DNA of 62,832 nucleotides, filler included, from Stramenopiles sp. TOSAG23-6 (lineage: Eukaryota), in assembly GCA_900128565.1 (NCBI GenBank). It is 35 parts of 35 records of this genome, joined end to end, with 100 filler letters (N's around TTAATTAATTAA, not from the genome) between each part and the next. Parts side by side here need not be neighbours in the genome. Positions count along the whole stretch, not along the records: positions 16,264 to 17,968 come from LT638685.1; 34 more parts are not named here. One strand, 5' to 3'. Positions 4,867 to 59,265 of the stretch are shown piece by piece (position 1 is the stretch's first letter; each line of letters starts with the position of its first letter). Under the pieces are notes generated by a model. That model searched no databases. It was not told the origin of the DNA and was given only the letters and a program-made list of their open reading frames with translations. Position numbers and translations under genes: made by a program.

Positions 4867-5326
4867 ATGAGGCCCTCCCTTTTCCTGGAGCTTGTGTTGG
4901 TGCTTGCTTTGGGTTTTCTGGGGGTTATTTACGTTCGGGCAGACGCCTCTCGAGATATTGTCCCGACGTTGTCTACCACAAACCAATACATTGTGTCATT
5001 TCACGACTATCACGACGTCGATCGCCACGAGACTATTCTTGCGGGCATACTAGGCTCTCAGAGCAACGGGGCGTGGCAGCACGTTCCAAGAAAGAACTTG
5101 GCAACCAAAGCCTTCCCCAGCGATTTTGCTTTGGTGTTTCTCGGGAGGTTGGAATCGCAGGCAAAGAAGTTGCTGGCGCACCACATCGTGAAACGGGTCT
5201 CGGCCGAACAAAAGTATTCGGGAAAACCCGCTGCCCCGCAGCACAAAAATAGACGAGCGCAGTTCGGGAGGGCCTCCCTTGGCCTGTCGTGGTCCCGTTC
5301 CGTGAGAGACGGCGCGACGGCAGGGG
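4867..5326 (+). CDS. MBTPS1: Site-1 protease (SKI-1/S1P) signal peptide and prodomain, 5' fragment
   Basis: YIVSFHDY, WQHVPRKN, FPSDFALV and HHIVKRVSAEQK match the S1P prodomain. Confidence 0.8.
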
Positions 5327-5699: not shown

Positions 5700-7047
5700 A
5701 TGGGCGGGTTTGCATCATTGTATCGTATAACATATAACATTGGTTGTGCTTTAGGTTGGGGATACATTGGTTTCCTACTCGTAAACTTATATCAAGCTGA
5801 TGGCTCATTTGCGAATGGAGATAAAGTGCATTATGCTATCTGGCCCACACTTCGCGTTGTTCAAACTGCAGCTATTCTTGAGATTTTTCATTCACTTATT
5901 GGAATGGTACGGTCTCCTATTGTTCCAGTTTTTCTACAAGTTTCATCTCGCCTGATATGTATCTGGATCACGTTATACAATTCACCAGCAGCGCAGGATC
6001 ATTGGTCTCTGGCGTTAATGGTTGGCAGCTGGTCTGTCGTGGAAGTACCTCGTTATCTTTTCTATGCAGCAAATGAAATTACCAAAGGCGGCACTGAAAA
6101 CGTGTGGTTTCCTCTTTTCTGGATAAGGTACTCCGCTTTCATCTTGTTATATCCTTCAGGGATTACTGGAGAGATGGTACAAATGTTGGTTAGTTTTCCT
6201 TATTTTATATCCGAGTTTGACAACCCAAAAAACAAGTTAATCGCTTTTATTTACCGTTTTATAGGTATTCTGTTTGTATCCTATTTTTTCCTGGGACCAT
6301 TTATGATACTTAATATGTGGAGTAATAGAAAACGTGCGTTTCAAAAACGAAATTCTTCTAACTCCACTTCAAACACTTCTCGAACTCCTGTAAAAGGCAT
6401 CGTGTGGCCGGTGACGAATAAAATTACTGGCGCTCGAAGTACGATGTATACGAATCAAGCAATATTTGCTGCTAGTTTGAAAGGCTTGGATGATTATCTT
6501 GGCGATTTAATTCTCCACGAGAAAAATTGGAGGAAAAACTACATCAAATATATGTATGTTTTATTTTTTTTTTTAAACAAAAAAATCGATTTTTTTTCGT
6601 ACGAAATTTTGTACCTAACGACTTTTTTTTGAAATATTTTTCCAAAATATATGAACGATTGTGTACGTCTTAGTCTTACCAGTGAAAGTCATGCACTACA
6701 AATTGCCAAGCAAGGCCTGGAAGCAGCCCATAAATTATTCCAATTTCAGCCTGAACATACTGCTGAAATGGAATCAGTGTCATTTGCTGAAGTCATGAAA
6801 ACTGATGCGCTTAAGAACAACCAAATATTTCTAACGGGAAATATCATTGGACAACAAGATAAACCAAAACATTTTGGGTTGGAGATTCCTTGTATGTTTT
6901 CATTGTTACTTAAAAAAGATATATTTCATAGTAAATTTTGTACCTAACGAATTTTTTTTGAGTATTCTTTCATAATACATACGAACAGGGAGCTTCAGGA
7001 AAGCCTTATAACCTATACCAAGACAAATCTCATCCATTGAGAGGAAT
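5700..7047 (+). CDS. HACD: Very-long-chain 3-hydroxyacyl-CoA dehydratase (PTPLA/PHS1) with a long C-terminal extra domain; introns 6554-6652 and 6892-6980; partial
   Basis: QTAAILEIFH, LQVSSR, EVPRY and WIRYSAFILLYPSGITGE are PTPLA motifs. The frame continues past the usual C-terminus. Confidence 0.85.
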
Positions 7048-8480: not shown

Positions 8481-8939
8481 TTATGGAAACGATTCATCTA
8501 TAACTGCTTCTGCCATTCGTATTATTTGATGTTGTGTTCTTTTCAATCGAGCTGAAGCATGAAGTATTGGGCTGAAAGGGGGGTTATATATTATAGTATA
8601 ACTTTTGCCTGCATTTAATGCAGTTTTCACTGCTGCCAAAACAATTTCTAAATCATCCTTCATTTCATCTGAAGCATACTGCAAAGCATGGCCCTCTTTT
8701 TTCACTGCTGCCATAACAATTTCTAAATTATTCTTCATTTCATCGGAAGCATACTGCAAAGCATAACCATGCTTTTTCACTGCTGCCATAACAATTTCTA
8801 AATTATTCTTCATTTCATCTGAAGCATACTCCAAAGCATGGCCATTATTTTTCACTGATGCCATAACAACTTTAAAGTTATTCTTCATTTCATCTGAAGC
8901 ATACTGCAAAACATCACCATCATTTTTCACTGCTGCCAT
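8481..8939 (-). CDS. DUF4116-type 25-aa repeat protein, C-terminus
   Basis: Tandem AVKxxGxALQYASDEMKNNLEIVM repeats (75-bp units). Confidence 0.85.
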   Translation of the reverse strand: MAAVKNDGDVLQYASDEMKNNFKVVMASVKNNGHALEYASDEMKNNLEIVMAAVKKHGYALQYASDEMKNNLEIVMAAVKKEGHALQYASDEMKDDLEIVLAAVKTALNAGKSYTIIYNPPFSPILHASARLKRTQHQIIRMAEAVIDESFP

Positions 8940-9070: not shown

Positions 9071-9202
9071 TACGAAATTTTGTACCTAACAAAAAAAAAT
9101 ATAAAAATATTTTTTTTTTTTTCAATTTCGAATTTGTTTTTTTTGTACGAAATTTTGTACCTAACAAAAACAAATATAAAAATATATTTTTTCACAATAC
9201 AT

Positions 9203-16318: not shown

Positions 16319-17412
16319 GTAGATCACCCCATAGGCCGAATCCAATTGGTTTAAGTCTTTGTCAGATTGACAGTATCGATGCAAAAAATAATACTGTGAA
16401 TCTTTCTGGGATAGATCTTTTGGATGGCACACCAGTGATAGATATAAAACCATACTTGACATCTGATATAATAGAGAGTAATTTTCAAATTTCATTTTTG
16501 AATGCATTAATTTTTTTCATCAAAAATATTTTGTACCTAACGGTTTTTTTACACCAGCAAAAAAACAATATTTTTCACAATATATAGGTACGTGTCCCAG
16601 ACTGGATTAAACCACAGACATGCCAAAAAATGCTTAATGTGCATTTTTCTAAGAATGCCAAAGAGGGTATAAAGACAATATCTTCAATTTTTTCCAAATT
16701 CTATCAAAGTGAGAATAAAACGAAACAAAATTCTTCTACACATTTCAAGTTTTTCCCCTTTGAAGATGTTGCAACTGTAGAACGTAGTATTGAACAGTTG
16801 CTTCAACTAAACCCAGCAAGAGGTGTTGATCCTTTAAGCCCGAGAGCGCAAGCATGTATGTTTTAATTTTTTTTTCAATTTTGAATTTATTTTTCGTACG
16901 AAATTTTGTACCTAACAATTTTTTTTCGAAATATTTTTCCAAAATACATCTTTAGTATCAAAAGGACAAGATACAAAACAACCAAAAGAATTAATGGGAA
17001 AATCATGGCTTGGTCCATATATTATTGAGGTTGGTGGACTTTCAGTCCGATTTTGGAAGAATGTACATTTCCCCTAACCCTAACCTTAATTTCGAATTTA
17101 TTTAACTATTTATTCATGGAAATTTTTGTCCTCACGATTTTTTTTATTACATTTTTCAAATTTTTTTTTCACACAACAAATGAAGAGGATATTTTGCAAA
17201 GGACCTTATGTGATAGTTTCAATACTGAGATAGCTGTGAGTATTTCATGCAGTGCGAAAGAAAATACTAAAGAAAATACTAAAGAAAATACTAAAGAAAA
17301 GAGGAAAGAAAATACTAAAGAAAATACTAAAGAAAATACTAATGAAAATTCAGGTTCTGTATTTGTAGAAGACATACAACCCAATAGTACTCTTTTGAAA
17401 GAAATAATGTAG
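16319..17412 (+). CDS. TRMO: tRNA (adenine37-N6)-methyltransferase TrmO/TsaA, 3' part (introns 16478-16585, 16856-16949, ~17063-17181)
   Basis: RSPHRPNPIGLS, GIDLLDGTPVIDIKPY and RVPDW motifs. Confidence 0.88.
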
Positions 17413-17485
17413 ACAAATTTGATAGTGTTGTATAATTTATAAACAAATTTATTAGGGTTTAGGGTTAGGGTTAGGTATAATTACT

Positions 17486-17902
17486 TTACTTTGACTTTGC
17501 ATTATTTGAATCCACTGTACGTGCAGTTCGAGCAGTGGATAATGCTTTCACTTTAGCTTTTGTTTTTTCTAACTCGATCTTAGCTTGAACTTCTTGTTGT
17601 TCCATTGTAGGTTTTGCAATCTCAAGGGGAATGTATTTTGGAAAAATATTTCAAAAAAAAAAACTTAAATTCGTTAGGTACAAAATTTCGTACGAAAAAA
17701 AAATTCGAAATTGAAAAAAAATAAAAACACACATTCCATTTTCCAAATTTTCTAAACGTTGTTTTTCTTTCAACCGATCTTTCTCTACAAGTTGCATAAA
17801 TGGCATTTTATCAACAATTTCTTTAGTACAACAATTCAACAATTTCATCTCAAATAGCAATTTCACATTTGGAGGAATATTTGGTGGATATCCGCGACGA
17901 CC
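17486..17902 (-). CDS. FKBP-type peptidyl-prolyl isomerase, C-terminus (intron 17631-17732)
   Basis: GRRGYPPNIPPNVKLLFEMKLL. Confidence 0.8.
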
Positions 17903-18867: not shown

Positions 18868-19075
18868 GTGTAGATGTGCAATGTCACTTAGCTATCATAT
18901 TGGTAAATGTAGATTTTGAAAATATCAATGATATCATCTTCATTTTTTTAGTATAATTTTATATTTTGAAATATAGCTTTTAAAAGAAAAAAGAATAAAT
19001 TTTAAAAATACTAAGAGTACTTCAAAACTTTTAATAAAGGTTCAAAATAGATCATATATATATATATGTATAATA

Positions 19076-19773
19076 TCAAGCAAGGGCTTCAATATTAGCA
19101 CAATCGTTTCCAGAATATCCAGCGAAGCAGACACATTGTCCAGTTGAATAGTCACACATCCCTCGACCTGAGCAATCTCGACCTTTTGAATTTNNNNNNN
19201 NNNNNNNNNNNNNNNNNNNNNNNNNNNNNNNNNNNNNNNNNNNNNNNNNNNNNNNNNNNNNNNNNNNNNNNNNNNNNNNNNNNNNNNNNNNNNNNNNNNN
19301 NNNNNNNNNNNNNNNNNNNNNNNNNNNNNNNNNNNNNNNNNNNNNNNNNNNNNNNNNNNNNNNNNNNNNNNNNNNNNNNNNNNNNNNNNNNNNNNNNNNN
19401 NNNNNNNNNNNNNNNNNNNNCATTTACCAGTATCTCTGTCGCACTCTCCAGCATCGGAACATTCAACGTCGTCAATGTGGCTTGAAATCTTTGTTTTTAT
19501 GATACGATATGAATCTGTTACAGCTAAACGCCTTCGACCATTATCCTCAGTTTTACTCAGTCGTCGTGCTACATTCTCGCCATCGTTGTTACAATTTTCG
19601 AGTAATGTATCAGGGTCTGGTACCCAGGGAGTACATTCGTGAGTGTCGGTGTCACACGTGTGCTTGTAGCAAGTTCCAGAAGTTGAATCTGATGCAACAA
19701 CCCCTTGTGTCCAAGAAATTCCGCGAGGGCAAGTGTGCAATGAGCAATCAGCGCCAGTCAAATATACGGTTTG
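19076..19773 (-). CDS. Redundant copy of the mastigoneme EGF gene at 31215-32122
   Basis: About 18815-19750 is the reverse complement of about 31448-32385. Confidence 0.85.
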
Positions 19774-19960
19774 NNNNNNNNNNNNNNNNNNNNNNNNNNN
19801 NNNNNNNNNNNNNNNNNTTAATTAATTAANNNNNNNNNNNNNNNNNNNNNNNNNNNNNNNNNNNNNNNNNNNNAATATTTCAAAAAAAAAAACTAAAATT
19901 TGTTAGGTACAAAATTTCGTACGAAAACAAAATTCGAATTTGAAAAAAAGTAAAACATAC

Positions 19961-21577
19961 ACCTGTGGAACAGATATTTTCAGCACACGCTCTATTACAT
20001 GTATTGTGAAAAATGTAGAAATTCGAAATTGGTCAAATAATTTGTACTCTTTTACATGTTCAATTCATGATGAAAATATACATTTCAAAAAAAAAATCTT
20101 TTTTGTTTTTTAAAAGAAAATCTCACATGAAAAAAAAATAGGGTTAGGGTTTGTACACTTCATGATGAAAACATACATGAAACACAGATATTGCAATTTG
20201 AGACGCCACCTCTGAAGATGGTATTTTTTCTTGCAACAAAGATGGATCTCTAATTATATCTGACACCACAGTAGTATTAGTTGTGAGAGCAAATAATTGA
20301 GCATACATTTCCTGTCCCGCAAGTCCAGCCACTCCAAATTGGCCATCCTTCAAAGAATCTCCAATAACGCCGTCGACATGGATTATAAAAAAATATTTAA
20401 AAAAAAACTTAAATTTGTTAGGTACAAAATTTCGTATGAAAAAAAACAATTTCGAAATTAAAAAAAATGAAAACGTACATACACTACAGATGATTTTAGA
20501 TCTGGAAGTACCCATTGTGCGGCCATGGATATAATTAGCAATGAGAAAAAAACAAGCTCAGCACAACGGCGAAGAAGCCAACCTCTTCTAATGCGTTTTG
20601 TTCTAGGATCTATATTCTGGGAAAATATTTCAAAATTTTCAAAATGTTTTGTTAAGTACAAAATTTTCTATCAAAAAAAAAAATCCAAATTGAAATGAAA
20701 ACACATACATTGTAATTCATATACTAAAGTTGGAACTGCCATAAAATAATAAAGTTCAGAAATTGATAAATTTTCAGGCCATTTGACAACTTTCCTATCT
20801 TGGCAATCAATATTTAACACATTCTTTATTTTGTTCATTTGTGGTGATTTTTTTCTCGTACCGCCTCTTTCTCCGTTAGGGTTAGGGTTAGGGATTTGAA
20901 TGTCTCTAGAATAATCTGTAGGTAAGGATTCATTATTATTAGAATCATCAGGATATTCAGATCCTTCAATAATCGGAGAAAATACAGGTGAACTCCGATC
21001 ATTTTGTTGTGTCGATGCATTCGTACCAAATTTTGTTCCTGAAAAAGTACTCTTTGACATTTTTGTGCCAGATATTTGTTTAGGGTTAGGGCTTTTAACG
21101 TCAACTGTAGTAGTTTGAGTTCGAAGCTCCCAATTCACATGAGCATAGGATATTAATTTGAAAAATGAGCACATGACACACATCATCAGCAACGCACTTT
21201 TCGCAGGGTGCGGAGCTAGAACAGTTACATAGTAGCAGGGGACGCAAAGTGATCCAGCACAATTAGTAAAATTTAACAAAAAAATTATAAACTCTGGGAG
21301 GAGATGCCTAGCAGCGATACATTCAATCAGAAGAGCTAATAGTATATTTACATTTTGGCACATGAGTAAGTTTAGCATCGGCCAATATGTAAAGAATTCA
21401 ACGCTTACAATTGGAGACTGTGGAATACCTATGACAATACCATATTTTAGGAAGTTTTCAACAACAAGACGCGAGTGTGTGATACACATAATAATTGCAA
21501 TTAAATTCATCACTCCACGGAATGAATTTTCCGGGGCCGTTGAAGACAACAAAGAAGCACGAACACGATCCGACGGT
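19961..21577 (-). CDS. DGAT1: Diacylglycerol O-acyltransferase 1 (MBOAT), partial; introns 19999-20176, 20378-20478, 20610-20708
   Basis: SLLSS, RLVVENFLKYG, KLISYAHVN, PTLVYELQYPRT and ERVLKISVP. Confidence 0.92.
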
Positions 21578-23576: not shown

Positions 23577-24192
23577 GTTTAGGTACGAAATTTTCTATGA
23601 AAAAAAAAAAAATTAAATTTAAATTTAAATTTAAATTTAAAATTCATGATGAAACACGTACATGAGGTGATGGACATCCTACTACAGTATGAAACCATTG
23701 TAACTGCATTTTTGCCTCACATGCTGCTTCTGAAGGAACAATTTGATTTAATGTACATGCTGTTATAAAGTCTTTCTTTCCTCGAAATGTTCTCTTTATA
23801 TTTGAAGAAGTTGAACAAGTTGATTGTGTTGTATTCACCATGCCAGTCACAATATCAGTGCAATTAACTGGAGCAAGTAAAGAAGGAATTTCTTCTGGTG
23901 AGCTCAAAGGAACACCTTCAGATAAGTTAAGGTGTAAGCCAACTCTGTGTAATAAACCCTCAGACCGTGCAATTGATATAGCTTCCATTGCATATGGTGC
24001 TCCTGCCATAATCGACGTTGCTGTACAGATACCGTCTTTCATGGCCTTTATAATACCTAGGGTTCGTTCCATACTTATACCGAAATCATCAGCTGTGATG
24101 ATAACTAAAGGTTTCATCTCCGACTTATTTGTGTTCAACTGTGATACGGTTTTCATTTCTTTAGTGTCAATTGATGATCCAATAACATTCAT
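23481..24192 (-). CDS. YDJC: YdjC/ChbG carbohydrate deacetylase, 5' part
   Basis: ITADDFG, VGLHLNLSEG and the spliced HVDGHQH. Confidence 0.9.
23504..23661 (-). mobile_element. Introner copy, GT...AT (158 nt)
   Basis: Removal restores the YdjC catalytic motif SPH-VDGHQH. An identical copy is at 36104-36261. Confidence 0.85.
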
Positions 24193-24612
24193 TATTGAAA
24201 CTTGACGCTTTGGTGTATACTACACGATCGAAATGTGTGACAAATTACTCTCTATACCTTTTTACTTTATTCTCTCTCTAAGTAATAGGTACAATATGCT
24301 GTCGTACACAATAGTAGTATCATTCGAGATGAAACTGGGTGTTGTGTATCACGAAGTACTACAATCACTGACGAATAGGAATTTCTTTACTAGCTACTAC
24401 TAGTTGGTAATTTCCGTCTAGATATAATGATGATCTAGATCTACTTCTAATCTATAATTCTTCGTCTTTGAACTTGTTTTGAAAAATCGAAAAATGAAAA
24501 ATGAAATAAATCGAAAAAAAGTAACTGTTTTACAAACTATATCTTCTTGCTGGGCACAATACTTAGCCTATAAGTTAGTATTTAGATTATTTATTTATGT
24601 ACGAATGAATCA

Positions 24613-25142
24613 ATGATAGAGAGTTATCAAGAGTTTAAAACTAGCCATGAGGAGGAGACACAGAAGGATTTGCTTTATTGTAACCAAGCAGATAGTGCGT
24701 CAAGAACAAAAGTATCAACAATACAAAATATACAAAATAATTTCCCCAATGAAAAACTTGAAAAAAAATATTTCACACCTAATGAAAAAAAGCATTTTTA
24801 TCCATGTTCTACCTCATCCTCATCTGAAGCCGAAGATATTCTTTCAATTGGATCATCCAATACACAGAAACAACTGAGAACTAGTACAAATGTCGCATGG
24901 CAAAATTTTCAAAATAAAAGAAAAATAACTCGTTCTAGAGGCATCTCGACTTTTCGTGAAAGAGCAGACGTAGCAATTGGTGCAGCAACAAGTCTTCGTG
25001 ATAAAGCGCGTGTAGGCGCGAAAGATTCTTTTGATGTAGCAATAGGTGCAGCAAAGTTAGGAGCAAAAGGGACTATTGGTGCTGCCCGTATGACCATCAA
25101 AACAACACGTGGCGCAGCTAAATTAGGTGCAAAAGGGACAAT
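24613..25142 (+). CDS. Unknown protein, first exon
   Basis: ORF from ATG to a family donor site; contains GAAKLGAKGT repeats. Confidence 0.55.
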
Positions 25143-25283
25143 GTATGTTTTNTTTTTTTNCATTTTTTTNTTNGTTTTNATACNNNNNNNNNNNNNNNNN
25201 NNNNNNNNNNNNNNNNNNNNNNNNNNNTTAATTAATTAANNNNNNNNNNNNNNNNNNNNNNNNNNNNNNNNNNNNNNNNNNNN

Positions 25284-28942: not shown

Positions 28943-30093
28943 ATGTACGAGACTCAGGAACACCTTCTTCGATTCATTTTTCAACCGACCATATATTTAG
29001 TGGGTGGAGTGATGGTCGGATTCGCTGTCATAACTCAGCCGGTGGAGATTTATTGTGGTTTATTAATGAGGCTCATGTATGTTTTATTTTTTTTCAAATT
29101 CGAATTGTTTTTTCATACGAAATTTTGTACCTAACGATATTTTTTTGAAATATTTTTCCAAAATACATAAAGTTTCTAGAAATGGCGCAGTCAGTGCCTT
29201 GAAGCTTAGCAACAACAGCAAATTTCTATTATCGGGAGGTGTATGTTTTATATGAATTTCTAATTTAATTTTTTTTTCATACGAGATTTCGTACCTAACA
29301 AATTTTAGTTTTTTTTTTTGAAATATTTTTCACAATACGTGAGAGTGGTGCTGTTAGGGTTTGGGACGTGAGAACTAAGGAACTAGTATCTCATTTGAAA
29401 GAGCACAAGTCCAAAGTATCACAAATATGTCTCTATGACGATGACGTCCACTGTTTAACATGTAGTCAAGACCGTTCATTCCTCTGTTGGGATCTTCGGG
29501 AAGAAAAGCGGATTGCAAGTCATGTTCAACGCACTGGAGGTATCAATGCGGTAGCTCTTTCCCGAGACCAAACATGTATGTTTTATTTTTTTTTTACAAA
29601 AAAATCGAATTTATTTTTCATACGAAATTTTGTACCTAACAATTTTTTTTAGATTTTTTTTGAAATATTGTTCCAAAATACACATATAGTTACTTGTGGC
29701 AAGGAAAGAATGATTACATTCTGGGATTTGAGAGATCCTACACCTGCTAAAACTATATCGCCAGCCCATGATGGTGAAGGGACATGTATAGCCATGCTCC
29801 ACAACAGTGATCATATTTTTGCTACTGGCGGAAGTGACCAAATTGTAAAACTTTGGGATGCAAGGACTGGAAAGGTTATAACGGAAGGGTATGTTTTCAT
29901 CATGAATTTCAAATTTAGTTTTTTTTTTTCATACGAAATTTTGTACCTAACGAATTTTTTTTGAAATATTTTTTTACAATACGGATTAGGGCATTCGGGG
30001 TGCATAAATGACGTACAATTTTCACCAGACGATAAGCAACTACTCTCTGTTGGGGATGATGGAAATATATTTATCTGGAACTTTTATTTGTAA
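28943..30093 (+). CDS. WD40 protein, CFAP52/WDR16-like, 3' part (four complete introns)
   Basis: SGWSDGRIR, LKEHK, ATGGSDQIVKLWD and GHSGCINDVQFSPDDKQLLSVGDDGNIFIW. Confidence 0.8.
29077..29168 (+). mobile_element. Introner copy, GT...AT (92 nt)
   Basis: GCT CAT|GTATGT...CCTAAC...AAAATACAT|AAA GTT gives EAH-KVSRNG in the WD40 gene. There is no AG after the branch point. Confidence 0.88.
29241..29340 (+). mobile_element. Introner copy, GT...GT (100 nt)
   Basis: GGA GGT|GTATGT...CAATACGT|GAG AGT restores the WD40 motif LLSGG-ESGAVRVWD. Confidence 0.88.
29889..29984 (+). mobile_element. Introner copy, GT...GG (96 nt)
   Basis: GAA GG|GTATGT...CAATACGG|A TTA GGG CAT restores EGLGHSGCINDVQFSPD. 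Confidence 0.86.
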
Positions 30094-30144: not shown

Positions 30145-30586
30145 AAATCTTTATTGATTGTTTTCAAGTTAATTTTTTGCTTTTAAATCTTTATTGATTG
30201 TTTTCAAGTTAATTTTTTGCTTTTAAATCTTTATTGATTGTTTTCAAGTTAATTTTTTGCTTTTAAATCTTTATTGATTGTTTTCAAGTTAATTTTTTGC
30301 TTTTAAATCTTTATTGATTGTTTTCAAGTTAATTTTTTGCTTTTAAATCTTTATTGATTGTTTTCAAGTTAATTTTTTGCTTTTAAATCTTTATTGATTG
30401 TTTTCAAGTTAATTTTTTGCTTTTAAATCTTTATTGATTGTTTTCAAGTTAATTTTTTGCTTTTAAATCTTTATTGATTGTTTTCAAGTTAATTTTTTGC
30501 TTTTAAATCTTTATTGATTGTTTTCAAGTTAATTTTTTGCTTTTAAATCTTTATTGATTGTTTTCAAGTTAATTTTTTGCTTTTAA
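30145..30586. repeat. 40-bp tandem satellite AAATCTTTATTGATTGTTTTCAAGTTAATTTTTTGCTTTT, about 11 copies
   Basis: Near-perfect head-to-tail units with no spacers. Confidence 0.95.
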
Positions 30587-30884: not shown

Positions 30885-31214
30885 TATGCAAAAATTAAAT
30901 CGAAGATGTAAAGATATAAACTCTTTAGAAAACGAAAAAAAGAAAATTACCGTTGGACAAAAAGATCCGTTGGATTGGGATTCGGAGATTATTTTTGGCC
31001 AATTGAAATGCGCAGTTCTGTTTTGTACCAAAATTTAGTACAATGAAGAAGGGTTGCCATCAGAATTCGTAAAAAGTCATTTTCCGTTACACGAAATTGA
31101 ATTCCAAAAATTCCAAAAAAATAAGCTCCAACGGCTAGTCAAAAGCAACGTAACCTTACTGTACACTTCACACTGGTTGAATACCCCGTTTCTTGAAAAA
31201 GAAATCTCTTCATT

Positions 31215-32122
31215 ATGTTGAAGCTCACTGTGTTTATTTTATTCTTTCTTTGTTCTGATATTGAGGCAGTTTGTCCGAATTCATGCTCGGGTCATGGTAA
31301 ATGTGATGCTCAGGATATTTGTACTTGCTTTAACGAAGGAAAGCCACTTTACTTTACAAAAGATTACGACCCAACAGCTGGAAATCAGCCTCATTATGAC
31401 AACTATGGTTCTGCAAATGTACCGATGAAAAAACGTTGGACTGGTGCTGATTGCTCATTGCACACTTGCCCTCGCGGAATTTCTTGGACACAAGGGGTTG
31501 TTGCATCAGATTCAACTTCTGGAACTTGCTACAAGCACACGTGTGACACCGACACTCACGAATGTACTCCCTGGGTACCAGACCCTGATACATTACTCGA
31601 AAATTGTAACAACGATGGCGAGAATGTAGCACGACGACTGAGTAAAACTGAGGATAATGGTCGAAGGCGTTTAGCTGTAACAGATTCATATCGTATCATA
31701 AAAACAAAGATTTCAAGCCACATTGACGACGTTGAATGTTCCGATGCTGGAGAGTGCGACAGAGATACTGGTAAATGNNNNNNNNNNNNNNNNNNNNNNN
31801 NNNNNNNNNNNNNNNNNNNNNNNNNNNNNNNNNNNNNNNNNNNNNNNNNNNNNNNNNNNNNNNNNNNNNNNNNNNNNNNNNNNNNNNNNNNNNNNNNNNN
31901 NNNNNNNNNNNNNNNNNNNNNNNNNNNNNNNNNNNNNNNNNNNNNNNNNNNNNNNNNNNNNNNNNNNNNNNNNNNNNNNNNNNNNNNNNNNNNNNNNNNN
32001 NNNNAAATTCAAAAGGTCGAGATTGCTCAGGTCGAGGGATGTGTGACTATTCAACTGGACAATGTGTCTGCTTCGCTGGATATTCTGGAAACGATTGTGC
32101 TAATATTGAAGCCCTTGCTTGA
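31215..32122 (+). CDS. Tubular mastigoneme-family EGF/tenascin-repeat protein (Sig/Ocm short paralog)
   Basis: Signal peptide, [42 protein letters not shown] and [14 protein letters not shown]. Confidence 0.8.
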
Positions 32123-32896
32123 TATTATACATATATATATATATGATCTATTTTGAACCTTTATTAAAAGTTTTGAAGTACTCTTAGTATTTTTAAAATT
32201 TATTCTTTTTTCTTTTAAAAGCTATATTTCAAAATATAAAATTATACTAAAAAAATGAAGATGATATCATTGATATTTTCAAAATCTACATTTACCAATA
32301 TGATAGCTAAGTGACATTGCACATCTACACTCATTTATAATTCTTCAATTTTCTTAATAACTCATTCAAATTTGCATCACTTAAANNNNNNNNNNNNNNN
32401 NNNNNNNNNNNNNNNNNNNNNNNNNNNNNTTAATTAATTAANNNNNNNNNNNNNNNNNNNNNNNNNNNNNNNNNNNNNNNNNNNNAGCAGCCATCTTGAG
32501 TCATTTTAATAAAGAGAGCAGCCATCTTGAGTCATTTTACAGGTATAGTTGCGGATAGTATATATATATCCACTTTCCTCTCTCTCTGCTAGTGAAATTT
32601 CCGTTCTTCAAAAAAAATTTAACGTATAAGAAACTGTCAAAATGATGATACAAACCTGTCGAAAAAATATTAATAAAGATTTTGATTTTTATTTTGTACT
32701 GAAAATTTGTACTTAAATTTTTGTCGCATTTTGTATTGAGATTTTGTCGGAGATTGAATCGCGTTGAATCGATCAATCCCCCGACAATTTGAACGTCAGG
32801 TTGATCACTAACAGTCAGCCACTCAATCGGTAATACTGTTGATTATATCTAAATAAACTAAATAAAAGACGAGAAAGTTCTAATATTTAACCAAAT

Positions 32897-34183
32897 ATGT
32901 TAAACTTCGTAAACTTCAACAGGAAATCCCCGAAACGTCCATTAGGTCCGCCCAGTTTAAATCGTNNNNNNNNNNNNNNNNNNNNNNNNNNNNNNNGGTA
33001 AAGACCCAAAGAAGTCCAGGGAAGTTGAAGGTGCGGTTGTTGCGGGTGCGGGTGGTGCGGGTCCAGCACCAGATAATGAATCCCCTTCATCTATTAGGGA
33101 TATCAATAGAGGGATCCCATTGTCTCCCGCAATTGCTAACAACGTATCATTTCGGACGGCTTCGCGGTTTGCGGAAGAAGATGTATGTTTATATTATAAA
33201 TTTCAGTTTTCATATGTCGAACACTGGTTTTGTACCTAACAAAAAAAAAGTTGAAATATTTTCTCACAATATATGAAACTAACCCTAAACGTAAATTGTT
33301 TTCACCGTTTGATGCCAACTCAGATGATTGGTCATCAATTAAAATGGATTTGGATGCATCACGCACCATTTCGACCATTTCGACGGGANNNNNNNNNNNN
33401 NNNNNNNNNNNNNNNNNNNNNNNNNNNNNNNNNNNNNNNNNNNNNNNNNNNNNNNNNNNNNNNNNNNNNNNNNNNNNNNNNNNNNNNNNNNNNNNNNNNN
33501 NNNNNNNNNNNNNNNNNNNNNNNNNNNNNNNNNNNNNNNNNNNNNNNNNNNNNNNNNNNNNNNNNNNNNNNNNNNNNNNNNNNNNNNNNNNNNNNNNNNN
33601 NNNNNNNNNNNNNNNNNNNNNNNNNNNNNNNNNATTTCGACCATTTCGGGAAAAATTGAAGACGTACGTGTTCATATTCTGGAATGTTTTTTTTTTCATA
33701 CGAAAATTTGTACCTAACGGAAAAAATGAAATATTTTTTCACAATATATGATGGTGGGGAATATTTTCACGATTATGTTATTTTTAATGGAAGAAAATAC
33801 ATTGGTGAAGGAGTGGCCGTTAATGGTGAAAAATGGGTGAGCTTGGAAAGTTTTGAGAAAATTTTTTCAAATTCTGGAATAAGNNNNNNNNNNNNNNNNN
33901 NNNNNNNNNNNNNNNNNNNNNNNNNNNNNNNNNATTTCGACCATTTCGGGAAAAATTGAAGACGTACGTGTTCATATTCTGGAATGTTTTTTTTTTCATA
34001 CGAAAATTTGTACCTAACGGAAAAAATGAAATATTTTTTCACAATATATGATGGTGGGGAATATTTTCACGATTATGTTATTTTTAATGGAAGAAAATAC
34101 ATTGGTGAAGGAGTGGCCGTTAATGGTGAAAAATGGGTGAGCTTGGAAAGTTTTGAGAAAATTTTTTCAAATTCTGGAATAAG
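32897..34183 (+). CDS. Unknown low-complexity protein (introns 33183-33274 and 33664-33749)
   Basis: Frames join across the family introns; large N gaps limit certainty. Confidence 0.4.
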
Positions 34184-34340
34184 NNNNNNNNNNNNNNNNN
34201 NNNNNNNNNNNNNNNNNNNNNNNNNNNTTAATTAATTAANNNNNNNNNNNNNNNNNNNNNNNNNNNNNNNNNNNNNNNNNNNNTAGGTACAAAATTTCGT
34301 ACGAAAAAAAAATTGGAATTTGAAAAAAAATAAAACATCC

Positions 34341-36176: not shown

Positions 36177-36792
36177 GTTTAGGTACGAAATTTTCTATGA
36201 AAAAAAAAAAAATTAAATTTAAATTTAAATTTAAATTTAAAATTCATGATGAAACACGTACATGAGGTGATGGACATCCTACTACAGTATGAAACCATTG
36301 TAACTGCATTTTTGCCTCACATGCTGCTTCTGAAGGAACAATTTGATTTAATGTACATGCTGTTATAAAGTCTTTCTTTCCTCGAAATGTTCTCTTTATA
36401 TTTGAAGAAGTTGAACAAGTTGATTGTGTTGTATTCACCATGCCAGTCACAATATCAGTGCAATTAACTGGAGCAAGTAAAGAAGGAATTTCTTCTGGTG
36501 AGCTCAAAGGAACACCTTCAGATAAGTTAAGGTGTAAGCCAACTCTGTGTAATAAACCCTCAGACCGTGCAATTGATATAGCTTCCATTGCATATGGTGC
36601 TCCTGCCATAATCGACGTTGCTGTACAGATACCGTCTTTCATGGCCTTTATAATACCTAGGGTTCGTTCCATACTTATACCGAAATCATCAGCTGTGATG
36701 ATAACTAAAGGTTTCATCTCCGACTTATTTGTGTTCAACTGTGATACGGTTTTCATTTCTTTAGTGTCAATTGATGATCCAATAACATTCAT
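36081..36792 (-). CDS. YDJC: YdjC deacetylase, second assembly copy or allele
   Basis: Same protein as 23481-24192. Confidence 0.88.
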
Positions 36793-37206
36793 TATTGAAA
36801 CTTGACGCTTTGGTGTATACTACACGATCGAAATGTGTGACAAATTACTCTCTATACCTTTTTACTTTATTCTCTCTCTAAGTAATAGGTACAATATGCT
36901 GTCGTACACAATAGTAGTATCATTCGAGATGAAACTGGGTGTTGTGTATCACTAAGTACTACAATCACTGACGAATAGGAATTTCTTTACTAGCTACTAC
37001 TTGTTGGTAATTTACCGTAGATACAAACAGTAATAATTCTTCGTCTTTTTGAAGTTTGAACTTGTTGTTTTGAAAAATCGAAAAATGAAATGAAATCGAA
37101 AAAAAGAAAAAAAAGTAACTGTTTTACAAACTTCTTGCTGGGCACAATACTAAACTAAAGCCTATAAGTTAGTATTTAGATTATTTATTTATGTGCGAAT
37201 GAATCA

Positions 37207-37736
37207 ATGATTGAGAGTTATCAAGAGTTTAAAACTAGCCATGAGGAGGAGACACAGAAGGATTTGCTTTATTGTAACCAAGCAGATAGTGCGTCAAGAA
37301 CAAAAGTATCAACAATACAAAATATACAAAATAATTTCCCCAATGAAAAACTTGAAAAAAAATATTTCACACCTAATGAAAAAAAGCATTTTTATCCATG
37401 TTCTACCTCATCCTCATCTGAAGCCGAAGATATTCTTTCAATTGGATCATCCAATACACAGAAACAACTGAGAACTAGTACAAATGTCGCATGGCAAAAT
37501 TTTCAAAATAAAAGAAAAATAACTCGTTCTAGAGGCATCTCGACTTTTCGTGAAAGAGCAGACGTAGCAATTGGTGCAGCAACAAGTCTTCGTGATAAAG
37601 CGCGTGTAGGCGCGAAAGATTCTTTTGATGTAGCAATAGGTGCAGCAAAGTTAGGAGCAAAAGGGACTATTGGTGCTGCCCGTATGACCATCAAAACAAC
37701 ACGTGGCGCAGCTAAATTAGGTGCAAAAGGGACAAT
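37207..37736 (+). CDS. Second copy or allele of the unknown gene at 24613
   Basis: Identical protein; one synonymous ATA/ATT change in codon 2. Confidence 0.55.
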
Positions 37737-37986
37737 GTATGTTTTNTTTTTTTNCATTTTTTTNTTNGTTTTNATACNNNNNNNNNNNNNNNNNNNNNNN
37801 NNNNNNNNNNNNNNNNNNNNNTTAATTAATTAANNNNNNNNNNNNNNNNNNNNNNNNNNNNNNNNNNNNNNNNNNNNAATCTTTTGTATTAAACCAAAAA
37901 AAAAGAAAAAAAAAAAAAAAATTTTTTTCATAGATAATTTTGTACCTAACAAAAATATAAAAAAAATATATTTTTTCACAATAAAT

Positions 37987-45111: not shown

Positions 45112-46667
45112 GTCTGTGATCCACCCGTCATAGAGAAAATAGACAATATTGCTAACACTAACTCTAACCAGGGATTGTCAAGTACAAAATTTGGTATGAA
45201 AAATACACCAGCTCTATCGGATTACACTAAAGTTACTTTTATTCCAGATGTAAGTTTTATTTTTTTTTTTACAAAAAAATCGAATGTTTTTTCGTACGAA
45301 ATTTTGTACCTAAAAAATTTAAGTTTTTTTTTTGAAATATTTTTCCAAAATACATCTATCAAGATTTGGAGTAAACAAATTTCCAAATGGAATGTTAGAC
45401 TTGTTGAAAAAAAGAGTTTGGGATATTGCTGGTTGTACACCAAATATTTCTGTTTATTTGAATGGTGTTGCTGTTGGTATTCCACAAAAATCTGGTATTG
45501 GATTTAGTAATTTCGGAGAGTACGCATCACTATATGATAGAAAATTGAATTCTTCATCAAGTGAAGAAAAGAAAATTGAAAAATCTGCATCATTGGTATT
45601 TGCAAAACTCAACAAAAATTGGGAAATTGCGGTAACTGCATCTTCATCATCATCATTACCATCAAGTCATTTTTCTCATGTGAGTTTTCATGATGAATTT
45701 CAAATTTTTTTTTTCGTACGAAATTTTGTACCTAACCAATTTCGAATTTAATTTTTTTTACAATACATGTGAGTTTTGTCAATAAAATGGCATCATTACG
45801 TGGAGGTACTCATGTCACAGCAATCGCCGATCTCGTATGTAAACCAATTGCTGATGCGATTAATGTATGTTTTTTTTTTTTTTTACAAAAAAATCGAATT
45901 GTTTTTTCGTACGAAATTTCGTACCTAACGTTTTTTTTTTTGAAATATTTTTCCAAAATACATAAAAAACATACAGATTTACGAATTACTCCGGGTGCAG
46001 TTCGACAAAATTTGAAATTATTTGTAAATGCAAAAGTAGCAAATCCATCATTCGATAGTCAATCAAAAGAAATGCTTACAACAAAACTTTCAGCATTAAA
46101 TATCCCAAAACTGTCACCAAAAGTTGTATGGTTTATTTTTTCAATTTCGAACTTTTTTTTTTTTTCATTTTTTTTGTCTATTTTTTTTTCAAATTTTTGT
46201 ATAATTTTTTTCAAATTTTTTTTTCATACGAAATTTTGTACCTAACAAATTGTACAAAAAAAAATATTTTTTCACAATATATGTTTCCAATATTATCTCA
46301 AAATCGAATATTGTGGAAACAACTATTTTTGCAGCAAAATCTCGTCAGAAGGCAATGCTATACAAAAAAACAAAAGTTTCAAAAAATCGAATGTTAACCA
46401 TACCTAAATTATCCGATGCTAATCTTGCAGGGGGTCGTCGTAGTAGTGAATGTACACTGATTTTGACGGAAGGTGATTCAGCAAAAGCACGTTTTCATTT
46501 CAATGTTTTGTCAAAAAAAATTTTTTTGGTAGAAAATTTCGTACCTAACATTTTTTTTTTTTTGAAATATTTTTTCACAATACTTGCGCTTGCCGTCTCT
46601 GGTTTATCAGTCATAGGTAGGGATACGTATGGTGTATTTCCTCTAAAGGGAAAATTATTAAATGTAC
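45112..46667 (+). CDS. TOP2: DNA topoisomerase II, ATPase-transducer-TOPRIM fragment (five complete introns)
   Basis: FIPDLSRF, SFVN...GGTHV, NPSFDSQSKE, KLSDAN, TEGDSAKALA and FPLKGKLLNV. Confidence 0.95.
46487..46585 (+). mobile_element. Introner copy, GC...TT (99 nt)
   Basis: GCA AAA|GCACGT...CAATACTT|GCG CTT restores the TOP2 TOPRIM motif EGDSAK-ALAVSGL. Confidence 0.85.
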
Positions 46668-57592: not shown

Positions 57593-59265
57593 ATCCACCG
57601 ATCCTCGCCATCTTCAGTTTTCTAGTCATAATATTCGATGTTATACTCATGAGCAGAATTCTCAACATGATTCGATTGGTGTTCGTTCAGCAGGTAATTC
57701 TCCTGTTTCTACTCAATTGGGTCATGTACGTTTTTCTTTCAATTTTTTTTCTACATTTTTGTTTTCGTACGAAATTTTGTACCTAACAATCTTTCAAATT
57801 TTACAAAAAAAAAATATTTTCCAAAAATTACATCGTCCTTTGATTCGTTCAGCAGGTAATTCTCCTGTTTCTACTCAATTGGGTCATCGACGTTTTTCTT
57901 TTTCTCATGAATTCGAAAGTACATCCAACGTCAACAATGATAATAATATCGATGATACTTTTAAAACTCCACGTAGAAGTCCACCTGGATTTAATTGTTC
58001 TATTTCACCTAATTCTAAATCTTGTGGACACCCAGGTCGTATTTTTTTTTTTTTCAATTTTTATTTTATTTAATTTGTTTTTCGTACGAAATTATGTACC
58101 TAACAAATTTTTTTAGATTTTTTTTTGAAATATTTTTTCACAATATATGTTGTGTTTGTGATAGTTTCTGTATCAATAATGGTATGAAACAAAAAAATGG
58201 AAATGAATTATTTGGAGATGTGTATGTTTTTCATCATGAATTTTAAATTGTTTTTTAATACGAAATTTTGTACCTAACAAAAAAAACCAAAACTTTTTTT
58301 TTTTATGTTTTTCATCATGAATTTTAAATTTTATTTTTTTTCATACGAAATTTCGTATCTAAANTTTTTTTTTTNGAAATATGTTTTCTTTTCACAATAT
58401 ATGAATTATTCACCTTTTCCGAAATATCGTAGTTTATCCGATGAGATATCTGTTGATTCAAATGTAAAAACTGTGAAAAAAACCTGTACAAAGTTAAAAT
58501 CTTGTGCAGTGCCGTGGGTACCTTCGTTACACATGAAGCAGCGAGAAGAAAAAAGTCGTTGGACCGTAGCTGACAAATCCATAGATAGGTGTATGTTTTA
58601 TTTGTTTTTTGTATGAATTTTTTTTTTTGGTTTCGTACGAAATTTTGTACCTAACAAAATTTTTTTTTTTTTGTTTTTTGTATGAATTTTTTTTTTGGTT
58701 TCGTACGAAATTTTGTACCTAACAAATTTTTTTTTTTTTTTTGAAATATTTTTCCAAAATACATCAGGATCGTACAATATTTTCAAAGATTCGTGTCTTT
58801 TACATGATGTACGTTTTCATTTCATTTCAATTTTTTTTTGAAATATTTTTTTTTTTTGGTTTTCATACGAAATTTTGTACCTAACATTTTTTTTGAAATA
58901 TTTTTTCATAATTCATGTTACTTCTGTTGAAGAATTGTCTAATTCGAATAATTCGTCTTTATTTTCTAAAGTATTTGAGAATAGTTTCCCCATGGAAAAA
59001 TTTTCTACGAAACAATTTTTTAATTATAATGATACTATTCTTAGTCAATTGAATATGGAATCCAAAAAATCCAAAAAATCACATGGACCGATAGGTGCCG
59101 AAAGAGGTGCAATTGTACTGGCTAATGTATGTTTTTTTTTTTTTTTTTTTTTTTACCGAAAAAAAAAAAAATCGATTTTTTTTTTTTTTTTTTTTTTCGT
59201 ACGAAATTTTGTACCTAAAAAATTTTTTTTTTCAAATATTTTTCCAAAACACGTAGGATTGGTCA
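57593..59265 (+). CDS. Unknown intron-dense gene (at least six family introns)
   Basis: Short exons separated by family introns; no recognised domain. Confidence 0.5.

What the first reader, a model, noticed from the sequence alone, without database searches (positions are those of the whole stretch)
16478..16587. Available AG dinucleotides are skipped
Seen: in TrmO the frame-restoring end is CACAATATAT|AG GTA. Using the AG 2 nt downstream with the GT donor causes a frameshift to a TAA and loses RVPDW. Introns 29241-29340 and 29576-29683 contain TTTTAG shortly after the branch motif; using the first would frameshift, and using either would add poly-T sequence to conserved WD repeats. Inference: scanning to the first AG does not operate here.
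Basis: partly seen in the sequence, partly recalled or inferred. Interest (0 to 1): 0.7.

Follow-up and report, generated by a model that had tools for sequence, protein, structure and literature searches.

The report
Introns that bypass available AG acceptors
In a marine protist, a large family of short introns appears to be cut at a fixed sequence box, mostly ending in AT, even when a normal AG acceptor lies nearby, and the organism's U1 splicing RNA has changed to match these introns.

Summary
Observation confirmed. Homologues place the TrmO intron at 16478-16585 (GT..AT) and four WD40-gene introns ending in AT, GT, AC and GG; every nearby AG breaks the frame or fits worse. Better evidence is a missed CCAG at +17 in TrmO, and 13 introns with an AG at least 14 nt out: motif end in frame in 11, the AG usable in 1. 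AG is not depleted after the branch box. Not seen in the earlier notes I was shown: (1) an RNA contig joins one family intron elsewhere in the genome with no AG in any register; (2) the only U1 snRNA found carries three changes that complement the family donor. Ordinary GT-AG introns coexist, and one is spliced in the same RNA data. The named junctions were not tested in RNA. The scan had noted the AT-ending family many times on other pieces of this genome. Closest known: Fritillaria non-canonical U2 introns.

The parts
16319..16477 (+). TrmO-like exon upstream of the intron (ends ...DIKPYLTSDIIE); it starts GTAG, so an AG 4 nt past the previous intron end is also not used
   Evidence: Pfam TrmO_N E 2e-17; sequence
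16478..16585 (+). TrmO intron, 108 nt, GT..AT
   Evidence: best of all GT/GC donor x acceptor pairs by homologue profile and by KPY-to-W spacing; shifts of -1 to -3 give a stop
16534..16541 (+). branch-like box TACCTAAC, inferred branch A at 16540
   Evidence: branching not shown
   Evidence: use leads to a stop with either donor
16567..16583 (+). 3' end box (family consensus AATATTTTTYCAMAATAY), followed by the two last intron bases
   Evidence: logo of 159 strict introns; frame test
16586..16587 (+). AG 2 nt past the inferred acceptor, read as exon
   Evidence: frameshift to TAA with the GT donor
16586..16855 (+). TrmO-like downstream exon (VRVPDW...)
16856..16949 (+). next family intron, GT..AT, next AG at +6
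   Evidence: motif call
17631..17732 (-). family intron GT..AT with an AG at +10 from the branch A
   Evidence: motif call
29077..29168 (+). WD40 (CFAP52-like, name recalled) intron, GT..AT; AGs at +4, +11 and +22 all break the frame
   Evidence: alignment to P0001
29241..29340 (+). WD40 intron, GT..GT; AG ending at 29308 (+10) frameshifts, AG ending at 29343 deletes a residue
29576..29683 (+). WD40 intron, GT..AC; only the GT register gives Tyr (Phe in P0001); AG ending at 29652 (+13) truncates, AG ending at 29689 deletes two residues
29889..29984 (+). WD40 intron, GT..GG; AG at +5 breaks the frame
46487..46585 (+). topoisomerase II intron, GC..TT; fixes the register, because shifts upstream lose the Lys of EGDSAK

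Best explanation
These are introns removed by the major (U2-type) spliceosome whose 3' splice site is set by an extended sequence box, not by the first AG. A modified U1 snRNA (A2, G5, A9 in place of U2, U5, C9) pairs with the family donor CAU/GUAYGUUU; U6 and U2 engage the donor and the UACCUAAC branch box. A factor, most likely the divergent U2AF65-like protein and possibly without U2AF35, binds the ~17-nt box AAUAUUUUUYCAMAAUAY and presents the second base after it for exon ligation. The -3 pyrimidine and -2 A are mostly kept; -1 is usually U, and AG is accepted only when it falls at that position. AGs upstream or downstream are ignored. The family probably spread as a small mobile element that left a 2-base duplication and favoured AT sites, and U1 then adapted. 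Shown: intron ends by homology and frame, one RNA junction, the U1 gene sequence, no AG depletion. Inferred: U1 pairing in vivo, the branch A, the box-reading factor, the mobile origin and the order of events.
For: Ends of 159 strict family introns: AT 121, TT 14, GT 8, AG 5, AC 4, other 7; the last two bases were left out of the scoring matrix. Frame from an independent codon model: motif end in frame in 95 of 103 testable; first AG after the branch usable in 28 of 100; AG within 10 nt downstream in frame in 12 of 42 against 41 of 42 for the motif end. 38 of 159 carry an AG between branch box and end, 17 of 159 at 14 nt or more; AG per 100 nt is 0.64 before the branch, 0.76 after it and 0.51 beyond +14, Fisher p 0.49 for both comparisons. 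Branch-to-end distance is 29-52 nt in 157 of 159, so it is not a fixed ruler from the branch. RNA: a run X4 contig matches 356 nt of exon without a difference and continues with the 12 bases of the upstream exon, skipping L199:2465-2560; none of the six equivalent registers ends in AG and the AG at +7 is not used. U1 is in a U5-U2-U1-U4 cluster and its three changes face donor positions +7 (T 99%), +4 (C/T 96%) and -1 (T 87%); it pairs better than the Rfam-consensus 5' end with 159 of 159 donors, mean 9.5 against 7.1 pairs. U2, U5 loop 1, the U6 ACAGAGA box and Prp8 residues 1351-1650 look ordinary.
Against: No RNA junction shows an upstream AG being passed. The one clear family junction is a single contig with a 12-base overhang, plus one contig in X3 inferred from its end point and length; a strain lacking the insertion would give the same contig. 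8 of 103 strict and 22 of 133 loose introns fail the frame test; those inspected were mostly visible mis-calls, and one (L066) fits an AG 2 nt before the motif end. At a gamma-tubulin intron (L038) the GT register replaces Met304 of the human protein by Lys, and a cut 2 nt upstream would keep it. Three of seven ordinary GT-AG donors pair much better with a standard U1 than with the one found, so an unassembled standard U1 is possible. U1 scored 54.1 bits, below the Rfam cut-off of 69.5, and its expression is not shown. Nothing ties the U2AF65-like protein to the box. The failure to find U2AF35 is weak, because the assembly is incomplete.
Confidence: 0.7

Rival explanations
1. Ordinary scanning is leaky but still works: close AGs are bypassed as in mammals, distant AGs are used in a share of transcripts that are then degraded, and the non-AG end is only a fallback.
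For: 23 of 42 AGs between branch and end lie at +9 to +15 or closer to the branch (most at +10 and +13), inside the known bypass zone. AG is below its base-composition expectation after the branch (42 against 107). The spliceosome does use AG in ordinary introns.
Against: AG is equally low before the branch (34 against 77), so there is no zone effect. 17 of 159 introns keep an AG at 14 nt or more, and in 12 of 13 testable cases it is unusable. Less consensus-like copies do not gain AG ends (2 of 43 against 3 of 77).
Confidence: 0.1
2. The intron ends pair with each other (GTAT...ATAC inverted repeat), and this RNA structure positions the acceptor, as proposed for euglenid non-conventional introns, with or without the spliceosome.
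For: The consensus ends are near-perfect reverse complements over about 7 bases including the flanking AT (logos).
Against: No covariation: +4 is C in 63 of the pairs listed, yet -6 stays A in 59 of them. U1 matches the donor, which points to the spliceosome. Donor +1 to +6 must be free for U6 and the 3' splice site (10.1101/212811, section 4).
Confidence: 0.08
3. The true cut lies 2 nt upstream at both ends (NN...AC, AT-AC-like, minor spliceosome), so the AG question is misframed.
For: In 106 of 159 introns the flanking dinucleotides are equal and the registers give the same mRNA. The gamma-tubulin intron keeps a conserved Met only in this register.
Against: The RNA junction excludes the -2 register; so do TrmO (stop), topoisomerase II (Lys lost) and intron 29576 (His for Tyr/Phe). 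Donor and branch spacing are not U12-like; no U12 or U6atac hit (inconclusive alone). Nearby AGs would be skipped in this reading too.
Confidence: 0.05
4. The elements are not spliced: they are polymorphic DNA insertions or assembly chimeras, and the intron-less RNA contig comes from a strain with an empty site.
For: Some contigs are joined differently at the same intron (L038 against L039). Runs X1 and X2 hold hundreds of contigs with unspliced family sequence. The joined form could not be checked in DNA runs.
Against: Essential single genes (topoisomerase II, gamma-tubulin) carry several copies each with conserved exons; 206 copies were called in about 0.98 Mb of overlapping sequence; U1 matches their donors; the RNA exon pieces are 99-100% identical to G000.
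Confidence: 0.04

Closest known systems
Non-canonical U2-type introns of Fritillaria borealis / F. pellucida (PMC13326754: abstract, section 21, first part of section 26 read)
   Same: 3' AT is the commonest end (34% and 44% there); a YAY triplet stands before the donor and at the intron end; a minority of GT-AG introns persists; a transposon origin is proposed (PMC11282704, passages).
   Different: There the commonest classes start with AG and the two U1 versions have identical 5' ends, with U2AF1/U2AF2 duplicated. Here donors are mostly GT, U1 has three matching changes, one divergent U2AF65-like gene and no U2AF35 were found, the 3' box is a long fixed motif, and the host is an unrelated protist.
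Entamoeba and Mastigamoeba donor sites with co-evolved U1 snRNA (bioRxiv 10.1101/2022.06.08.495308: abstract, section 14 read)
   Same: The U1 5' end is changed to full complementarity with an atypical donor.
   Different: The changes described there face intronic positions (ACAAAC for ACUUAC); here one change (C9A) faces the last exon base, and the acceptor has lost AG. The sections read report no loss of AG.
Introners that carry the 5' splice site and take the 3' site from the target-site duplication (Chrysochromulina sp. in PMC9860276, passages read)
   Same: Many similar copies; the donor lies inside the element; the last two bases often copy the exon end (14 non-AT matches against 2.5 expected); short inverted ends.
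   Different: In the passages read the co-opted site is AG; here it is AT or other dinucleotides, which needs a changed spliceosome. Copies are diverged and no transposase or empty site was shown.
First-AG scanning / AG exclusion zone of mammalian U2 introns (PMC1431707, passages read)
   Same: AGs within about 12-15 nt of the branch can be bypassed there too.
   Different: Here AGs beyond that zone are tolerated and no exclusion zone is seen.

Membership tests
U2-type (major) spliceosomal intron | GT/GC donor complementary to U1 and to the U6 ACAGAGA box | tested here: met
   complementary to this genome's U1, mean 9.5 of 11 pairs; the caller allowed only GT/GC donors
U2-type (major) spliceosomal intron | branch box able to pair with U2 GUAGUA | tested here: inconclusive
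   TACCTAAC nearly invariant and U2 ordinary; full pairing needs one extra bulged C; no lariat data
U2-type (major) spliceosomal intron | 3' YAG at the first suitable AG after the branch | tested here: not met
   AG end in 5 of 159; first AG usable in 28 of 100
U2-type (major) spliceosomal intron | U1, U2, U4, U5, U6, Prp8, Slu7 and U2AF present | tested here: inconclusive
   five snRNAs, Prp8, Slu7 and a U2AF65-like gene found; U2AF35 not found
U12-type (minor) intron | RTATCCTT donor and a branch box close to the 3' end (consensus recalled) | tested here: not met
   donor GTAYGTTTT; branch 29-52 nt from the end
U12-type (minor) intron | U12 and U6atac snRNAs in the genome | tested here: inconclusive
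   no hit, but the assembly is incomplete and the search had no positive control
Introner / MITE-derived intron | many similar copies at unrelated sites | tested here: met
   206 called copies; 43 in the window
Introner / MITE-derived intron | site-specific target-site duplication | tested here: met
   14 non-AT 2-base matches; permutation mean 2.5, maximum 9 in 10,000; 53 of 159 copies have unequal flanks
Introner / MITE-derived intron | terminal inverted repeats of 6 bases or more | tested here: inconclusive
   4 bases inside the element, about 7 with the flanks; no covariation
Introner / MITE-derived intron | empty sites in close relatives and a mobilising transposase | not tested
   P0001 is an uninterrupted relative but may be a transcript; no transposase search was run
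Fritillaria-type non-canonical introns | YAY at the 3' end and before the donor, with canonical introns as a minority | tested here: met
   -3 Y 98%, -2 A 83%, -1 T 91%; exon end AT in 106 of 159; seven GT-AG introns by hand; their share could not be measured
Fritillaria-type non-canonical introns | duplicated U2AF subunits with an unchanged U1 5' end | tested here: not met
   U1 5' end changed; no duplication seen in an incomplete assembly

The most novel reading that the evidence does not exclude
This lineage has re-coded the major spliceosome's junction rule from AG/GT...AG to AT/GT...AT. Its only U1 has been rebuilt for an invading intron family, U2AF35 is lost, and a motif-reading factor rather than AG recognition places the 3' splice site, so AG is merely one tolerated ending. 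It would be a natural case of AG-independent, scanning-free exon ligation with an unchanged Prp8 and U6 core.
Probability: 0.3. Interest if true: 0.9.

Novelty: new variant of a known kind. Interest (0 to 1): 0.75.

Why it matters
The yeast P-complex structure explains the AG rule by pairing of G(-1) with the first intron G and of A(-2) with the branch A (10.1101/212811). A genome in which most called introns end in U, keep A(-2), and tolerate AGs between branch and acceptor, with an ordinary Prp8 alpha-finger region, gives a natural test of which parts of AG selection are chemical need and which are imposed by U2AF and scanning. The U1 change opposite the last exon base suggests that the splicing machinery adapted to an invading intron family, a different route from the one reported in Fritillaria. 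In practice, gene finders that force AG will mis-splice these genes.

Tried and rejected
RNA on the finding's own junctions: not obtained; the single read-laying went to a 10-kb stretch of G000:C100 chosen for having more introns in better-expressed genes. In that laying no listed contig spans the family introns in Rab2 (6799-6897), the other two urocanase introns, or 402-494, which says nothing about them; the listed joints in table 5 are repeat cross-matches. A genome-wide count of ordinary GT-AG introns by word scan failed: control words scored as often as GTAAG. A standard U1: the 11-base pattern gave 7 matches against 10 for the control and none lay in a U1; a DNA search with the U1 found only its two identical copies. 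U2AF35: none of 17 CCCH matches; the one motif-pattern hit lies in another frame of an unrelated gene; a UHM-region candidate on C1280 was an unrelated RRM protein. Relatives with the same introns: nine metagenome loci at 61-72% identity in the WD40 exon held no branch box. A ruler from the branch point: rejected, distances span 29-52 nt. Prp8 change at the 3'-site contacts: not seen in residues 1351-1650; the RNaseH domain and Prp18 were not examined. Taxonomy beyond 'probably a stramenopile' was not reached (the atlas hit scored 0.87, a lead only). Literature: nine searches ran; the five aimed at a protist or stramenopile GT-AT system listed no such report. The library lacks most subscription papers, including Henriet 2019, and no supplements were read; intron tables in the supplements of PMC9860276 might include this organism.

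Full report
Setting. The window is a chain of contigs of about 1.7 kb joined by N-flanked linkers, cut from a 21-Mb, AT-rich eukaryotic assembly, G000. Mastigoneme-like genes and oomycete-type WD40 homologues suggest a stramenopile (a lead, not a placement). Seawater metatranscriptomes hold its sequence. The box TACCTAAC occurs 60 times in the window against a mean of 2.3 in 50 shuffles, nearly always inside a ~100-base element that starts GTAYGTTTT and ends with a T-rich box followed by ATAC and two more bases.

The observation. For TrmO I joined both possible GT/GC donors (16478, 16504) to every acceptor from 16545 to 16611 and scored the products against 120 homologues. GT16478-AT16585 scored highest (114.7 bits) and puts the conserved W 13 residues after KPY, as in 64 of 120 homologues. 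The profile alone does not separate it from an end at 16588 (114.5); the family box does. The AG at 16587 gives a stop after 58 residues with the GT donor; with the GC donor it is in frame but adds eight residues (111.3; W at 21). For the WD40 gene, an 87%-identical relative (P0001) gives the best alignment with ends at 29168 (AT), 29340 (GT), 29683 (AC) and 29984 (GG). The AGs at 29308 and 29652 truncate the product to 89 and 150 residues; the in-frame AGs at 29343 and 29689 delete one and two residues and score lower (1112 and 1113 against 1128).

How far the examples carry. In mammals AGs closer than 12-15 nt to the branch can be bypassed during scanning (PMC1431707, passages). The two WD40 AGs are at +10 and +13, so they do not by themselves refute scanning. 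I therefore tested the family. From about 0.98 Mb of own-genome sequence with overlaps, de-duplicated by flanks, a matrix-based caller found 206 copies, 159 under strict scores. The caller allowed only GT/GC donors and did not score the last two intron bases or the exon bases. Strict ends: AT 121, TT 14, GT 8, AG 5, AC 4, other 7. Reading frames on each side were assigned with a codon model from long ORFs. Of 103 testable strict introns, 95 are in frame at the motif end; among the 100 with non-AG ends, the first AG after the branch is usable in 28. In the loose set the figures are 111 of 133 and 36 of 130. Where an AG lies 14 nt or more from the branch A, the motif end is in frame in 11 of 13 and the AG is usable in 1 of 13 (strict: 8 of 9 and 0 of 9). 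AG density does not fall after the branch: 0.64 per 100 nt before it, 0.76 after, 0.51 beyond +14 (p 0.49 each).

RNA. Seven RNA runs held small shares of the window. Four were laid on G000:C100:5001-15000 (L199). Exon pieces of 150-356 nt with 0-3 differences show the organism or a very close strain in all four. One X4 contig matches 2110-2465 and continues with 12 bases that are the end of the upstream urocanase exon, skipping the 96-base family intron 2465-2560 on the minus strand. Six registers give this product; none ends in AG, the -2 register is excluded, and the AG 7 nt into the exon is not used. An X3 contig (another study) stops at 2460 with 38 unlisted bases left, which fits the same junction given a 4-base repeat; this is inferred. 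An X4 contig also spans the ordinary GT-AG intron of a Rab gene in the same stretch. This intron has no AG between branch and end, so passing of an upstream AG still rests on homology and frame. Contigs give no counts, and a strain without the insertion is not excluded.

The machinery. U5, U2, U1 and U4 lie in one cluster and U6 elsewhere. U2's branch-pairing region, U5 loop 1 and the U6 ACAGAGA box match the Rfam consensus. U1 begins AAACGUACAUG where the consensus has AUACUUACCUG: changes at positions 2, 5 and 9, which face donor positions +7, +4 and -1, where the family has T 99%, C/T 96% and T 87%. The exon base was not part of the caller. This U1 pairs better than the consensus with all 159 donors and supports the GT register, as do TrmO, topoisomerase II and intron 29576. 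No second U1 was found. Against over-reading: the match is below Rfam's cut-off (54.1 against 69.5 bits), three of seven ordinary donors would pair better with a standard U1, and the assembly is incomplete (12 proteasome-subunit matches on 9 contigs; 14 genes expected, recalled). Prp8 residues 1351-1650 are almost identical to human, including the alpha-finger stretch. Slu7 is present. The U2AF65-like gene has two RRM1-like domains and a UHM-like domain. U2AF35, which reads the AG directly (PMC7505975, passages), was not found.

Two classes. Ordinary GT-AG introns occur in proteasome, Rab and cathepsin genes, twice in the same Rab gene as a family intron. So AG is used when it is the signal of that class or falls at the box-defined position. 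Their share could not be measured. A cathepsin intron without the family core also seems to end in AT with AGs on both sides out of frame, and AT and GA donors occur.

Origin. The last two intron bases copy a non-AT exon end in 14 cases against 2.5 expected, as for a 2-base target duplication, and the element ends GTAT...ATAC. Where flanks differ, AT is more often on the intron side (29 against 14, p 0.03), which suggests that AT is the preferred acceptor. Mobility itself was not shown.

Comparison and novelty. It works most like the non-canonical U2 introns of Fritillaria (3' AT, YAY at both junctions, a canonical minority) but differs in donor, in U1 and in the U2AF complement. U1 co-variation has a precedent in Entamoeba. 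Five literature searches aimed at such a protist system found none. The scan's earlier notes describe the AT-ending family on other pieces of this genome many times; these are unchecked AI notes and are not counted as support. None of the notes I was shown reports an RNA junction or the U1 change. Verdict: observation confirmed; interpretation right for this family but argued from weak examples; new variant of a known kind; interest 0.75.

Noticed in passing
G000:C1146:9-645 (L031), duplicated on C6122: U5, U2, U1 and U4 snRNA genes lie head to tail in about 640 bases with spacers of 2-23 bases.
   Followed up: partly
L199:3469-3565 minus strand (urocanase); L201 near 8700-8800 (small GTPase): Family introns whose donors appear to start with AT and GA; the urocanase one also has an out-of-frame AG 11 nt after the branch.
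   Followed up: partly
L221 about 5023-5117 (cathepsin): An intron without the family core that appears to need a GT..AT cut, next to an ordinary GT-AG intron in the same gene.
   Followed up: partly
L038:1036-1133 minus strand (gamma-tubulin): The GT register gives Lys where human gamma-tubulin has Met304, and the upstream residues are two longer than in the human protein as recalled; possibly a different donor or a mis-join.
   Followed up: partly
L199 intron bins, runs X1 and X2: 984 and 966 contigs were laid, mostly on family intron sequence at summed depth in the thousands, against 55 and 10 in X3 and X4 at similar exon depth: retained or excised introns, or DNA in those libraries.
   Followed up: no
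L146:1108-3060 minus strand: The U2AF65-like protein has two RRM1-like domains instead of RRM1 plus RRM2.
   Followed up: partly
window 17072-17083, 17452-17470, 20876-20893, 21079-21091; also L045, L053: Short telomere-like TTAGGG runs inside introns, spacers and coding sequence.
   Followed up: no
window 19042-19821 and 31197-32156; 23644-25239 and 36244-37833; 33660-34235: Near-identical gene pieces occur on two contigs, and one exon-plus-intron unit is repeated; alleles or assembly redundancy.
   Followed up: no
window 30150-30586: Tandem repeat of a 33-base unit downstream of the WD40 gene.
   Followed up: no
window 9083-9200, 58591-58764; L053, L055: Some family introns hold two branch boxes in tandem, as from internal duplication or nested insertion.
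   Followed up: no
L038 against L039-L041: The same gamma-tubulin exon and intron continue into different sequence on different contigs, so some contigs are mis-joined at the repeat.
   Followed up: no
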